Assembly (NCBI GenBank): GCA_000434835.1
Contig: FR881490.1
Location: 56,374-120,373, forward strand
Length of the DNA: 64,000 nucleotides
Direction of reading: 5' to 3'
Source: Clostridium sp. CAG:594
Lineage (GTDB): Bacteria > Bacillota_I > Bacilli_A > RF39 > UBA660
The notes beneath the pieces are model-generated. The model did not search any database and was not told the origin of the DNA. It saw nothing but the letters and a program-made list of their open reading frames with translations. Positions 18,034-20,468 of the stretch are shown here, piece by piece. Position 1 is the stretch's first letter. Each line of letters starts with the position of its first letter. Both the position numbers and the translations under genes were made by a program.

Positions 18034-18047
18034 TCTCTTTTTTATTG

Positions 18048-18065
18048 ATGTTTCACGTGAAACAT
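18048..18065. repeat. 18-bp perfect palindrome ATGTTTCACGTGAAACAT, copy 1
   Basis: Seen directly. Followed by AGGTATATAAAAT. Confidence 0.7.
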
Positions 18066-18126
18066 AGGTATATAAAATAAATATCAAAATTAACTTGCTA
18101 AAATTCAAATAATATAATAAAATAAT

Positions 18127-18206
18127 ATTGCACAACAGGAATGTTAGAACCAGGTCAGGCTCGAGAGATAGCAGCCTTAATAACCTCTTTCTGTGTGTGC
18201 TTTTAT
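18127..18206 (+). ncRNA. ffs: Signal recognition particle RNA, small 4.5S-like form (candidate)
   Basis: ACCAGGTCAGG…AGCAGCC matches the SRP domain IV consensus ACCAGGUCAGG-UCCGGAAGG-AAGCAGCC. The apical GNRA tetraloop GAGA is closed by a compensatory TC/GA stem (E. coli has CC/GG). The 5' GCACA pairs with the 3' TGTGC, followed by a U-tract. A -10-like TATAAT sits upstream. Confidence 0.5.
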
Positions 18207-18219
18207 TTTATATAAAATA

Positions 18220-18237
18220 ATGTTCCACGTGAAACAT
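18220..18237. repeat. Palindrome copy 2 (ATGTTCCACGTGAAACAT), followed by AGGTATACAAAAAT
   Basis: Seen directly. Confidence 0.7.
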
Positions 18238-18264
18238 AGGTATACAAAAATAAAAAGAAGGGTA

Positions 18265-18282
18265 ATGTTCCACGTGAAACAT
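18265..18282. repeat. Palindrome copy 3, immediately upstream of the tadA start
   Basis: Seen directly. Its ATG is in frame with tadA. Confidence 0.7.
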
Positions 18283-18297
18283 AGTATTAAATATTAT

Positions 18298-18708
18298 ATG
18301 GAAGAAAAATATTATGAAGAAATAATAAAATTAGCTAAAAAAGCCTACAAAAAAGGGGAAGTGCCGGTTGGTGCAATTGTAGTAAAAGATGGTAAGATAC
18401 TTTCTAAGGCATATAATAGAGTTGAAAAAGATAGAGATGCAACTATGCATGCGGAAATCTTAGCTATTAAAAAGGCATCTAAAAAAATAAAAAACTGGAG
18501 ATTAAATAATTGCGAAATGTATGTAACATTAGAACCTTGTATGATGTGTACTGCAGCAATAGAATTAAGTAGAATAAAAAAAGTACATTATTTACTTAAA
18601 AGAGATAAAGAAATAATAAAAAGCAAAGAAAAGTATATTTATGAAGAAACTGAATCTAGTCAAGAGGTTTTAGAACTATTACAATCGTTTTTTAAAAGTA
18701 AAAGATAA
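18298..18708 (+). CDS. tadA: tRNA-specific adenosine deaminase TadA
   Basis: HAE…PCMMC zinc motif. The N-terminus MEEKYYEEIIKLAKKAYKKGEVPVGAIVV aligns with TadA. The track's upstream extension consists only of palindrome-encoded MFHVKH. Confidence 0.85.
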   Translation: MEEKYYEEIIKLAKKAYKKGEVPVGAIVVKDGKILSKAYNRVEKDRDATMHAEILAIKKASKKIKNWRLNNCEMYVTLEPCMMCTAAIELSRIKKVHYLLKRDKEIIKSKEKYIYEETESSQEVLELLQSFFKSKR

Positions 18709-18738
18709 GCAATGTTCCACGTGAAACATTGCTTTTTT
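18709..18738 (+). terminator. tadA terminator built from palindrome copy 4 (GCAATGTTCCACGTGAAACATTGC + T6)
   Basis: A 24-nt perfect inverted repeat followed by TTTTTT, directly after the tadA stop. Confidence 0.6.
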
Positions 18739-18788
18739 AGTTTAAAAACATAACTTAAAATGTTATAATATATAACAGAGGTGGTTGT

Positions 18789-20468
18789 ATGGCATATCAA
18801 ACATTATATAGAAAATATAGACCTAAAACGTTTGAATTAGTATATGGACAAGATGTAATAGTAAAAACATTAAAAAATGTTATTAAAAACGATAAACTAA
18901 GTCATGCGTACTTGTTTACAGGGCCTAGAGGAACTGGTAAAACGAGTAGTGCAAAATTGTTTGCAAAAGCTATTAACTGTTTGAATAATAAAGATGGAGA
19001 TGCTTGTAATGAATGTGAAAATTGCAAATCATTTAATAACAATAGTAATCCTGATATAATAGAAATAGATGCTGCATCAAATAATGGTGTAGATGAAATA
19101 AGAGAAATAAAAAATAAGGTTAGCTTAGTTCCATCTATGTCAAAATATAAAGTATACATAATCGATGAAGTTCATATGCTTTCAATTGGTGCCTTTAACG
19201 CATTATTAAAAACATTAGAAGAACCACCAGAATATATAATATTTATATTAGCTACGACAGAACCACAAAAGATTCCAGCTACTATAATTTCTAGATGTCA
19301 AAGATTTGATTTTAAAAGTATATCACATGATAAAATGAAACAATGCCTTGAAAATATTATTTCAAAAGAAAATATAAGCATAGATGATGGTGCAATTGAA
19401 GAAATAATAAATAATTCTAAAGGTGGAATGAGAGACGCTATTGGATTATTAGATCAAGCATCAGCATTTTGTAATAATAATATAACAGCAAATGACATAG
19501 AAGAATTGTCTGGAAATATATCAATTAAACAAATAAGAATATTTTTATCAAATATTATGCAAAAAGAATATAATGTGATATTTGATTCAATATCTAATTA
19601 TTCATCAAACGGAAAAGATTTTGCATTGATTTGTGAAAAAATAATTAACTATATTAGAGAAGGCATACTATACAAGAAGAAAATTAATACAGATAAAATA
19701 CTTGATGAGGATAAAAATATATTTGATAAATTGTCTGATACCGATTTGTATGATTTAATAGATTATTTATCCGATACATTGGTTAAGGTGAAAAATAGTT
19801 ATCAAAAAGAATTAACGTTCGAAGTACAAATGATTCAAATGATCGATAAGATATTTAATAAAGAAAGTAATGTTTCACGTGAAACATCAATAAATAAAAT
19901 AAAAGTAGAAAATACCAATGTTCCACGTGAAACATCAATAAATGAAATAAAAGCAGAAAATATCAATGTTCCACGTGAAACATTAAAAATAGAAAACAAA
20001 ACTGATAGCGTTATAGAAGAATTAAAAAATGTTAGAATAAATAATATTTTAAAGAATGCAACTAAACAAAATATAACATTTATAAAAGATTTATGGCCTA
20101 ATATCAATGAATATCTTATAAATGAAAAATATAAGATGGTAGCGGGTATGTTAGTTAATGCAACTCCTGTCGCAGCATCAAAAAAGGGAATAATAATAAC
20201 TTTACCATTAGAGTCAAGTATTTCTAGAATAGAAAAGGAATATGATAATAGTAAAGAATTATTAAATGAAATATATAACGAAAACTACAAAGTAGTATAT
20301 ATTTCTGAGCAATATTGGAAAAAAGTAAGACCTAAATTTGTAGAAAAAGCTAAAAACGGAGAATTACAAATTATAGATGAGTCTGAAGTACTAGACAAAT
20401 TAAAAAAAATAAATGACAAAAACTTAGTAGAAGAATTTAATGAATTAATTGAAATGGAGGAAAATTAA
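18789..20468 (+). CDS. dnaX: DNA polymerase III subunits gamma/tau
   Basis: AAA+ motif GPRGTGKTS and a Zn module CNECENC. Contains an internal 48-bp tandem repeat. Confidence 0.93.
   Translation: MAYQTLYRKYRPKTFELVYGQDVIVKTLKNVIKNDKLSHAYLFTGPRGTGKTSSAKLFAKAINCLNNKDGDACNECENCKSFNNNSNPDIIEIDAASNNGVDEIREIKNKVSLVPSMSKYKVYIIDEVHMLSIGAFNALLKTLEEPPEYIIFILATTEPQKIPATIISRCQRFDFKSISHDKMKQCLENIISKENISIDDGAIEEIINNSKGGMRDAIGLLDQASAFCNNNITANDIEELSGNISIKQIRIFLSNIMQKEYNVIFDSISNYSSNGKDFALICEKIINYIREGILYKKKINTDKILDEDKNIFDKLSDTDLYDLIDYLSDTLVKVKNSYQKELTFEVQMIQMIDKIFNKESNVSRETSINKIKVENTNVPRETSINEIKAENINVPRETLKIENKTDSVIEELKNVRINNILKNATKQNITFIKDLWPNINEYLINEKYKMVAGMLVNATPVAASKKGIIITLPLESSISRIEKEYDNSKELLNEIYNENYKVVYISEQYWKKVRPKFVEKAKNGELQIIDESEVLDKLKKINDKNLVEEFNELIEMEEN
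19870..19983 (+). repeat. 48-bp tandem repeat (~2.4 copies) inside dnaX, each unit starting with the 18-bp palindrome
   Basis: Units begin at ~19870, 19918 and 19966. They encode NVSRETSINKIKVENT / NVPRETSINEIKAENI / NVPRETLKIEN. Confidence 0.75.

What the first reader, a model, noticed from the sequence alone, without database searches (positions are those of the whole stretch)
18040..19990. 18-bp perfect palindrome ATGTT(T/C)CACGTGAAACAT repeated 7 times, in intergenic regulatory positions and in frame inside dnaX
Copies lie at ~18048 (just after gyrA), ~18220 and ~18265 (flanking the ffs terminator and abutting the tadA start), ~18712 (forming the tadA terminator as GCAATGTTCCACGTGAAACATTGC + T6), and three times inside dnaX at ~19870, 19918 and 19966.

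Copies 1 and 2 are each followed by AGGTATA(T/C)AAAAT, a -10-like element, so the unit may be a promoter/operator module. The motif reads ATG-TTC-CAC-GTG-AAA-CAT, i.e. MFHVKH, on both strands. This explains the spurious MFHVKH extensions in the six-frame track.

It does not match the operator consensus I know for LexA/Cheo, Rex, CodY, Fur/PerR, CIRCE, CtsR, TnrA or NrdR. One repeat family serving as operator/terminator in intergenic DNA and also colonising a coding sequence in frame is unusual.
Basis: seen in the sequence. Interest (0 to 1): 0.6.

Follow-up and report, generated by a model that had tools for sequence, protein, structure and literature searches.

The report
Origin-proximal cluster of parS centromere sites
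The repeated 18-bp palindrome is parS, the well-known bacterial chromosome "centromere" site bound by the ParB/Spo0J segregation protein; here seven copies are packed into 2 kb next to the replication origin, which makes it a compact but ordinary example of a known element.

Summary
Seven exact copies of ATGTT(C/T)CACGTGAAACAT lie at 18048-19983 (0 expected by chance), and there are none elsewhere in about 84 kb. The interpretation as an unknown operator/promoter module is not supported. The 16-bp core is identical to the published chromosomal parS consensus TGTTNCACGTGAAACA, and five copies equal the B. subtilis parS exactly.

The cluster lies 7.5-11 kb from oriC (GC-skew switch, DnaA-box clusters, dnaA-dnaN). 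All 13 relatives (DnaX 59-98% identical) keep 4-10 sites at the same gyrA-ffs-tadA-dnaX position, with an invariant core and scrambled flanks. The copies inside dnaX always use the V-S/P-R-E/G-T frame, the same frame as the validated parS inside B. subtilis spo0J, and sit in the only hypervariable DnaX linker.

In 120 unrelated metagenomic loci with paired motifs, 62 carry soj/parA and 47 carry spo0J/parB in the same locus, mostly right beside the pair. Dense arrays are already known (M. xanthus, 22 sites in 3 kb). Copy 4 also serves as the tadA terminator hairpin.

The main gap is that this lineage's ParB gene was not located; it is absent from the usual rsmG-adjacent position. Verdict: a known element in a new locus, of low interest.

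The parts
18048..18065 (.). parS copy 1 (T variant, perfect 18-bp palindrome), 6 bp after the gyrA terminator hairpin and about 30 bp upstream of the ffs promoter
   Evidence: Exact match. A site after the gyrA stop is present in 12 of 13 relatives; L011 begins too close to dnaX to cover that position.
18220..18237 (.). parS copy 2 (identical to the B. subtilis parS core), just after the 3' end of ffs; first unit of a 45-bp direct repeat
   Evidence: The ffs-tadA array has 1-5 units in relatives, and 2 units here against 3 in same-species strains L005 and L146.
18265..18282 (.). parS copy 3, second unit of the 45-bp repeat, 16 bp upstream of the tadA ATG at 18298; its own ATG is in frame with tadA, which explains the MFHVKH artefact
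18707..18740 (+). parS copy 4 (18712-18729) embedded in the tadA intrinsic terminator: stem AAGCAATGTT...AACATTGCTT followed by T6; the dnaX promoter follows at 18741-18769
   Evidence: Terminator scan. RNA fold -12.9 kcal/mol, z = -4.0. The T-run is kept after the site at about -75 in most relatives.
19870..19887 (.). parS copy 5, inside dnaX, encoding N-V-S-R-E-T
19918..19935 (.). parS copy 6, inside dnaX, encoding N-V-P-R-E-T
   Evidence: This copy has decayed in strain L146 (NALRET).
19966..19983 (.). parS copy 7, inside dnaX, encoding N-V-P-R-E-T
19869..19991 (+). 48-bp tandem repeat (2.6 copies) carrying copies 5-7, in the hypervariable linker of DnaX (about residues 361-400)
   Evidence: TRF. 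DnaX alignment: linker column conservation about 0.3, against 0.55-0.99 (mostly above 0.7) elsewhere.
8746..10566 (.). oriC region: DnaA-box clusters at 8746-9017 and 10500-10566 flanking dnaA (9112-10464), with the GC-skew sign change
18121..18213 (+). ffs (small SRP RNA), inside the cluster
   Evidence: Rfam RF00169, 48.6 bits.
18298..18708 (+). tadA (tRNA adenosine deaminase), inside the cluster
   Evidence: Pfam.
18789..20468 (+). dnaX (clamp-loader tau subunit), host of three in-frame parS copies
   Evidence: Pfam.

Best explanation
The seven palindromes are chromosomal parS sites, the centromere-like loading sites for the ParB (Spo0J) CTPase.

By analogy with B. subtilis, Caulobacter and Corynebacterium, ParB dimers bind each parS through their helix-turn-helix domains, close into CTP-bound sliding clamps, and spread over the neighbouring few kb. 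The resulting nucleoprotein complex next to oriC is moved by ParA/Soj (if present) and loads SMC condensin, which individualises and segregates the sister origins.

Packing 7-10 sites into 2 kb creates one strong, point-like loading zone about 9 kb from oriC. The array grows and shrinks by tandem duplication of units of about 45-48 bp. Selection keeps only the 18-bp site. Inside dnaX the copies are tolerated because they sit in a disordered linker and use the stop-free V-S/P-R-E-T frame. Copy 4 additionally acts, at the RNA level, as the stem of the tadA intrinsic terminator.

Shown here: sequence identity to parS, origin proximity, clade-wide conservation at the DNA level, and the general association of the motif with parAB operons. 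Inferred, not shown: ParB binding, spreading, SMC loading, and the existence of a parB gene in this genome.
For: 1. Sequence identity. All 7 cores have no mismatch to TGTTNCACGTGAAACA. This is the published parS consensus, and TGTTCCACGTGAAACA is the B. subtilis parS used in ParB biochemistry (PMC7022226 Table 1).
2. Positive control. The same scan finds the parS inside B. subtilis spo0J, in the same reading frame (NQNVPRETKKK). The Spo0J query was verified as 100% identical to B. subtilis Spo0J and matched to PDB 6SDK/5NOC.
3. Location. The cluster is 7.5-11 kb from oriC, defined by the GC-skew flip, the DnaA-box clusters and the rnpA|dnaA-dnaN-recF-gyrBA gene order. It is the only parS in about 84 kb.
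4. Conservation. All 13 relatives (DnaX 59-98% identical) carry 4-10 sites at the same place and none elsewhere in their +-10 kb flanks. The core is invariant and the flanks are scrambled. Positions 0 (A) and 17 (T), which lie outside the search pattern, are invariant in 94 of 94 sites.
5. Selection on DNA, not protein. Within the DnaX linker only the V-[SP]-R-[EG]-T codons persist. The probability of the exact codons under random synonymous choice is 1.4-2.5% per copy, and there are 33 distinct copies.
6. Independent association. Among 120 metagenomic loci with paired motifs (GC 26-74%), 62 encode Soj/ParA and 47 encode Spo0J/ParB in the same locus, in most cases within a few hundred bp of the pair.
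7. Precedent for density. M. xanthus has 22 parS in 3 kb (PMC3899335), and the five strongest Caulobacter sites lie within 5 kb, about 8 kb from ori (PMC5815017).
Against: No parB, parA/soj or noc gene was found in the window, in the 10 kb on each side, or in any of the 13 relatives' +-10 kb loci (tblastn; Pfam). The canonical position after rsmG is occupied by an N/Q-rich protein of unknown function. The cognate protein is therefore assumed, not demonstrated, for this lineage. There are no binding data. Whether other parS sites exist elsewhere in this genome is unknown.
Confidence: 0.88

Rival explanations
1. Operator/promoter module for an unknown sequence-specific transcription factor. The palindrome plus the following AGGTATAYAAAAT would form a regulated promoter, and the copies would coordinate expression of ffs, tadA and dnaX.
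For: Four copies are intergenic and close to gene starts or ends. ParB binding at parS is reported to silence neighbouring genes in some species, for example P. aeruginosa (PMC7022226), so a secondary regulatory effect is possible.
Against: Promoter-like sites are not enriched (22 found against 20.9 expected), and none is called at the '-10-like' element. The ffs and dnaX promoters are predicted elsewhere, at 18090-18123 and 18741-18769. The AGGTATA element is not conserved outside the closest strains. Three copies lie deep inside a coding sequence. The same 16-mer lies next to parAB operons in unrelated phyla. In B. subtilis, loss of Spo0J did not change expression of genes adjacent to parS (PMC7022226).
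Confidence: 0.03
2. A REP/MITE-like mobile palindromic element that has colonised this region, including dnaX.
For: The motif is a multi-copy palindrome with local tandem duplication and copy-number polymorphism between strains.
Against: There is no copy anywhere else in about 84 kb. Only the 18-bp core is shared between copies, so there is no common element body, terminal repeat or target duplication. The position is conserved across relatives with DnaX down to 59% identity. The core is identical across phyla, which mobile elements are not.
Confidence: 0.02
3. Purely RNA-level elements: the palindromes are transcription-terminator or RNA-stability hairpins, with no DNA-binding role.
For: Copy 4 is a convincing intrinsic terminator, and copy 1 sits right behind the gyrA terminator.
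Against: Only 1 of 7 copies is followed by a T-run. Three copies are inside an essential ORF, where termination would be harmful. A hairpin needs no fixed sequence, yet the core is invariant. Flank pairs beyond A0/T17 are not more complementary than shuffled controls in the intergenic copies.
Confidence: 0.03
4. Genuine parS-type sites whose reader in this lineage is not a canonical ParB. Either ParB has been lost and the sites are bound by a ParB/Noc-like paralogue or another protein, or they are decaying relics.
For: No parAB/noc genes were found at the canonical rsmG-adjacent position or anywhere in the DNA inspected. The lineage is labelled 'Tenericutes' in its record, and Mycoplasmataceae lack par genes (PMC7022226).
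Against: Ninety-four near-perfect sites are maintained across a clade whose DnaX diverges to 59% identity, with no synonymous drift. That argues for ongoing strong selection by a protein with canonical ParB specificity, so relics are excluded. The organism is a spore-former with a Bacillus-like origin region, not a minimal mycoplasma. Only about 84 kb of the genome was inspected.
Confidence: 0.04

Closest known systems
Bacillus subtilis parS / Spo0J (ParB) chromosomal centromere sites (Lin & Grossman 1998; consensus TGTTNCACGTGAAACA)
   Same: The 16-bp sequence is identical in 5 of 7 copies, and the other two fit the consensus. The sites are origin-proximal, they occur both in intergenic DNA and inside genes, and the in-gene copies use the same V-P-R-E-T frame as the parS inside spo0J.
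   Different: B. subtilis has 10 sites, and its four strongest are 5-39 kb apart (PMC5815017). Here 7 sites lie within 2 kb, some as 45-48-bp tandem units. The par operon is not next to rsmG. The site is effectively 18 bp in this clade, with invariant A/T flanks.
Myxococcus xanthus 22-repeat parS cluster, and the Caulobacter crescentus parS cluster
   Same: These are compact multi-site chromosomal centromeres near ori: 22 sites in 3 kb in M. xanthus, and the five strongest Caulobacter sites within 5 kb, about 8 kb from ori and within essential genes. The density and the distance from ori are comparable to this locus.
   Different: The phyla differ. The M. xanthus cluster lies about 4 kb upstream of parA, whereas here no par genes lie within about 40 kb on the left-to-right span inspected. 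Here part of the array is an in-frame coding repeat.
F-plasmid sopC centromere (12 direct 43-bp repeats, each with a 16-bp inverted repeat bound by SopB)
   Same: The architecture is similar: head-to-tail units of about 43-48 bp, each carrying one 16-bp palindromic ParB-family binding site, evolving by unit duplication (PMC3177203).
   Different: The site sequence and cognate protein differ (SopB against chromosomal ParB). sopC is a plasmid locus and non-coding, with 12 uniform units. Here the runs are short (2-5 units) and are interrupted by genes.

Membership tests
Chromosomal parS (ParB/Spo0J binding site) | 16-bp palindrome matching TGTTNCACGTGAAACA | tested here: met
   7 of 7 copies have no mismatch, with 0 expected by chance. 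The consensus is taken from PMC7022226.
Chromosomal parS (ParB/Spo0J binding site) | Location in the ori domain (the origin-proximal ~20% of the chromosome) | tested here: met
   The cluster is 7.5-11 kb from the DnaA-box clusters, dnaA and the GC-skew switch.
Chromosomal parS (ParB/Spo0J binding site) | Site conserved under selection in related genomes | tested here: met
   All 13 relatives carry 4-10 sites at the same locus. The core is invariant, the flanks are scrambled, and the synonymous positions are frozen.
Chromosomal parS (ParB/Spo0J binding site) | A cognate ParB (ParB_N + HTH_ParB) encoded in the same genome | tested here: inconclusive
   None was found in the window, in its 10-kb flanks, or in the relatives' +-10 kb loci. 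The rest of the genome could not be searched, and the Spo0J search listed only Bacillus.
Chromosomal parS (ParB/Spo0J binding site) | Motif physically associated with parAB operons in general | tested here: met
   62 of 120 metagenomic loci with paired motifs carry soj and 47 of 120 carry spo0J, mostly adjacent to the pair.
Chromosomal parS (ParB/Spo0J binding site) | ParB binding/nucleation and spreading in vivo or in vitro (ChIP-seq, EMSA); SMC loading | not testable with these tools
   This needs experiments on an uncultured organism, or heterologous ParB expressed in E. coli.
Noc binding site (NBS) | A palindrome of the ATTTCCCGGGAAAT type (recalled from memory), distributed away from the terminus rather than clustered at the origin | tested here: not met
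   The core here is CACGTG, not CCCGGG, and the sites form a single cluster.
Intrinsic terminator | G+C-containing hairpin immediately followed by a T-run | tested here: met
   Met only for copy 4 (18707-18740). Not met for the other six copies.
Sigma-70 promoter/operator module | -35/-10 hexamers at proper spacing that overlap the repeat and are conserved in relatives | tested here: not met
   No promoter is called at the AGGTATAYAAAAT element, and there is no enrichment of promoter-like sites. The element is absent in most relatives.

The most novel reading that the evidence does not exclude
In this uncultured gut Bacilli clade, the chromosome's centromere may have been consolidated into one compact, plasmid-like parS array of 7-10 sites in 2 kb. 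The array turns over by duplication of 45-48-bp units, is uncoupled from the par operon (which has left the rsmG locus), and is threaded through essential genes. A ParB complex sitting on the domain III/IV linker of dnaX and on the ffs and tadA transcription units could then couple origin segregation to expression of the clamp loader, for example through roadblock-induced truncated, gamma-like DnaX transcripts. The more radical alternative is that the sites are read by a non-canonical protein because ParB is absent.
Probability: 0.06. Interest if true: 0.6.

Novelty: already known. Interest (0 to 1): 0.2.

Why it matters
It mainly matters as annotation. Recognising these palindromes as parS explains the spurious MFHVKH/MFHVEH ORF extensions and the odd V-S/P-R-E-T repeats in DnaX. 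It also marks the segregation centre and confirms the origin of an uncultured gut lineage.

The locus is a clean natural example of three things:
- Selection acting on a DNA site inside a coding region, with frozen synonymous positions in a hypervariable linker.
- Growth and shrinkage of a centromere array by tandem duplication, visible between strains.
- A parS palindrome reused as a terminator stem.

None of this changes current understanding of ParABS systems.

Tried and rejected
1. Locating the lineage's ParB. Pfam on about 40 window ORFs, the left and right 10-kb flanks from the source scaffold (one search failed because the start codon was wrong), and tblastn of Spo0J and Soj against the window plus the 84 loci held at that point all found nothing. 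A Spo0J search of the 5.8-billion-protein database listed only Bacillus, and only the 120 listed hits were stored. I ran no further search on 12-kb walking steps, because the chance of success was low.
2. L150 (27% GC, soj and spo0J next to a parS pair) as a stepping-stone query. Rejected: it has a Clostridia-like noc-soj-spo0J arrangement, and its site flanks are T...T rather than A...T.
3. The idea that all sites are extended 22-bp hairpin palindromes. Rejected as a general feature: beyond A0/T17 the intergenic flank pairs are no more complementary than shuffles. The coding copies show a modest excess at -2/+19 and -3/+20 (P about 0.01 and 0.004, uncorrected for eight pairs), but they are related tandem units under coding constraint.
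4. The N/Q-rich ORF in the noc/soj/spo0J position as a cryptic ParB. It has no Pfam hit and no tblastn similarity, and it is low-complexity with an acidic C-terminus.
5. Livny et al. 2007 (PMC2168934) is not held in the library. Its numbers are cited only through PMC3899335 and PMC7022226.
6. The promoter/operator reading, the MITE reading, and the protein-motif reading: see the rival explanations.
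Full report
**Observation.** The region 17900-20200 contains seven exact copies of ATGTT(C/T)CACGTGAAACAT, at 18048, 18220, 18265, 18712, 19870, 19918 and 19966. None of 100 dinucleotide-preserving shuffles of the window gave a single match. 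Allowing up to 3 mismatches to the 16-bp core finds nothing closer than 2 mismatches elsewhere in the 64 kb. The 10 kb beyond each end of the window, fetched from the source scaffold, has no site with <=2 mismatches. Two copies (18048, 19870) are perfect 18-bp palindromes. The other five carry C at core position 5 opposite A at position 12, so they are imperfect and read MFHVKH on one strand and MFHVEH on the other. The three dnaX copies belong to a 48-bp tandem repeat of 2.6 units.

**Context.** GC skew changes sign at about 9-10 kb and gene orientation flips at the same place. To the left, on the minus strand, lie rsmG, mnmG, mnmE, jag, yidC and rnpA. To the right, on the plus strand, lie dnaA, dnaN, comK, recF, gyrB, gyrA, ffs, tadA, dnaX, ybaB, recR and holB. 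DnaA boxes cluster at 8746-9017 and 10500-10566. The window therefore spans oriC, and the motif cluster lies 7.5-11 kb to its right. Sporulation genes (yabG, yabP, yabQ, and spoIID and spoIIID in the left flank) and a GC content of about 27% indicate a spore-forming low-GC Firmicute. The closest genome is a human-gut MAG labelled 'uncultured Tenericutes bacterium UMGS957' (DnaX 98% identical). Related MAGs are labelled Bacilli or Candidatus Aphodocola.

**Identification.** The 16-bp core TGTT(C/T)CACGTGAAACA is the chromosomal parS consensus. A full-text search finds TGTTCCACGTGAAACA only in ParB/parS papers, as the B. subtilis parS. TGTTNCACGTGAAACA is given as the conserved chromosomal parS in the review PMC7022226, which lists 10 sites for B. 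subtilis, 8 of them in the ori domain. As a positive control I fetched the B. subtilis spo0J locus. The same scan finds one site, inside spo0J, reading NQNVPRETKKK in the same codon phase as the dnaX copies here.

**Conservation.** A scan of one genome per GTDB species with DnaX returned 13 close relatives (DnaX 59-98% identical). Every one has 4-10 parS sites (<=1 mismatch) at the same place: after gyrA, between ffs and tadA (1-5 units at 44-46 bp spacing), between tadA and dnaX, and 1-4 copies at nucleotides +1067 to +1235 of dnaX. None has a site anywhere else in its +-10 kb. The core is invariant while the flanks are unrelated between species. Positions 0 (A) and 17 (T), which were not part of the search pattern, are invariant in 94 of 94 sites, so the site is effectively 18 bp in this clade.

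Among the 67 more distant loci (DnaX <=54% identical), 63 have no site near dnaX. The exceptions include L023 and L041, which share the gyrA-tadA-dnaX synteny and keep a parS pair upstream of tadA, and L020, which has a one-mismatch copy in dnaX in the same frame.

**Selection on DNA rather than protein.** In the DnaX alignment the copies lie in the only hypervariable segment. Column conservation there is about 0.3, against 0.55-0.99 (mostly above 0.7) elsewhere. This segment is the linker after the clamp-loader core. Within it only the V-[S/P]-R-[E/G]-T pentapeptides persist, and they are always encoded by the parS codons. Given this genome's codon usage (Arg AGA 67%, CGT 24%), a random synonymous choice would give the parS sequence only 1.4-2.5% of the time per copy, yet 33 distinct copies do. 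Of the three reading frames, one contains TGA. The V-P-R-E-T frame is one of the two stop-free frames and is the polar one, which plausibly explains why it is the frame used here and in B. subtilis spo0J (inference).

**Dynamics.** Near-identical strains differ in copy number. There are two units between ffs and tadA here, against three in L005 and L146, a difference of one 45-bp unit. In L146 the middle dnaX copy has decayed (NVPRET to NALRET). In other relatives the unit's non-core part is completely different. Arrays therefore arise and turn over by local tandem duplication, with selection retaining only the site.

**Independent link to the Par system.** Of these, 62 encode a Soj/ParA homologue and 47 a Spo0J/ParB homologue in the same locus, mostly within a few hundred bp of the pair. 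Five loci are members of this clade, with the gyrA-tadA-dnaX context. Much denser arrays exist: 15 sites in about 1 kb upstream of a gene with a DnaA-like N-terminus (L137, identified by eye only), 7 in 278 bp (L168), and 6 in 185 bp (L195). The literature already describes 22 parS in a 3-kb stretch in M. xanthus (PMC3899335), five strong sites within 5 kb located about 8 kb from ori and inside essential genes in Caulobacter (PMC5815017), and ten in 35 kb in C. glutamicum (PMC7083940). The tandem-unit architecture resembles F-plasmid sopC, which has 12 repeats of 43 bp, each with a 16-bp inverted repeat (PMC3177203). Neither the density nor the coding-region placement is unprecedented.

**Transcription signals.** Plausible ffs and dnaX promoters lie at 18090-18123 and 18741-18769. 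Two plus-strand terminators are predicted: the gyrA terminator at 18015-18041, and a hairpin at 18707-18734 that is parS copy 4 plus a 5-bp stem extension and T6. That RNA folds at -12.9 kcal/mol, z = -4.0. The T-run and a complementary extension recur at the orthologous site in most relatives. Copy 4 is thus a dual-use element. This is not general: beyond A0/T17 the flank pairs of the intergenic sites are no more complementary than shuffles.

**Mechanism.** The following rests on established ParABS biology (PMC7022226; PMC8299390). ParB dimers nucleate at each parS, close as CTP-bound clamps, slide onto flanking DNA, and build a partition complex. That complex is positioned by ParA and loads SMC-ScpAB. 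Several adjacent loading sites should raise the loading rate and concentrate ParB in one zone about 9 kb from oriC. A single site suffices in other species, so multiplicity probably adds robustness (PMC7083940; PMC7022226). These steps are inferred here, not shown.

**The gap.** No parB, soj or noc gene is present in about 84 kb around oriC or in any relative's +-10 kb locus. The usual position after rsmG holds a 456-aa N/Q-rich protein without recognisable domains. I could not search the rest of the genome with the caps available. The strong purifying selection on 94 sites argues that a canonical ParB exists elsewhere, but this is the one defining feature left untested, and it is easily decided by an HMM search of the MAG.

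**Verdict.** The promoter/operator interpretation is not supported. The terminator role of copy 4 and the explanation of the ORF artefact are supported. The element is the well-known parS centromere site in a compact origin-proximal array. The kind is already known, and this is a previously undescribed but unsurprising instance in an uncultured gut Bacilli clade.

Noticed in passing
window 1-772 (minus strand); full gene in L001 10751-12121: The position after rsmG, where Firmicutes usually encode noc-soj-spo0J, holds a 456-aa N/Q-rich low-complexity protein with an acidic C-terminal part and no Pfam hit. It is followed by rpiB, spoIID, spoIIID and mbl. The par operon has evidently moved or been lost from its canonical site.
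   Followed up: partly
window 11838-12299 (+): A ComK competence-regulator gene (Pfam E = 7.6e-41) is inserted between dnaN and recF in the otherwise canonical dnaA-dnaN-recF-gyrB-gyrA block.
   Followed up: no
window 3403-4934: A YhcG-like PDDEXK nuclease (DUF1016, minus strand) and a YcxB-like protein (plus strand) are inserted between mnmE and mnmG. This looks like a small accessory insertion in the conserved origin-flank operon.
   Followed up: no
window 57629-63956 (+): Five consecutive ORFs (about 192, 606, 594, 98 and 559 aa) have no Pfam hit, either on record or in my scan of the first one. It is an uncharacterised operon downstream of ftsH.
   Followed up: no
window 32204-39098 (+): Two very large surface-protein genes (1536 aa with SdrD-B-like and Ig-like domains; 774 aa with SpaA/prealbumin-like domains), probably an adhesin or pilus locus, lie about 25 kb from oriC.
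   Followed up: no
window 18220-18282, compared with L005 9388-9493 and L146: There is copy-number polymorphism of the 45-bp parS unit between strains of one species: 2 units against 3. In L146 one dnaX copy has decayed (NVPRET to NALRET). This shows centromere-array turnover on a strain timescale.
   Followed up: yes
L137 1044-2027 (metagenome contig Ga0180436_10000184): Fifteen consensus parS sites lie in about 1 kb of intergenic DNA (GC 35%), roughly 1 kb upstream of a gene whose N-terminus looks like DnaA (judged by eye only). L168 has 7 sites in 278 bp and L195 has 6 in 185 bp. Very dense chromosomal parS arrays seem common in uncultured bacteria.
   Followed up: partly
94 sites in window and L005-L017: In this clade the bases flanking the 16-bp parS core are invariant (A at -1 relative to the core start, T at +1 after the core end), giving an 18-bp site. 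There is also a weaker pyrimidine preference at -2 and purine preference at +19. The B. subtilis spo0J site and the Clostridia-like locus L150 lack this symmetric A...T flank. It may reflect a lineage-specific ParB contact.
   Followed up: partly
window 18265-18300: The ATG inside parS copy 3 is in frame with tadA and is preceded by GAAGGG only 3 nt upstream. The annotated-looking start at 18298 has no obvious Shine-Dalgarno sequence. The true tadA start is ambiguous in this strain, whereas relatives have a separate RBS and ATG downstream of the site.
   Followed up: no
window 17974-18020: A 15-bp tandem repeat (3.1 copies) encodes the acidic, low-complexity C-terminal tail of GyrA, just before the gyrA terminator and parS copy 1.
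   Followed up: no
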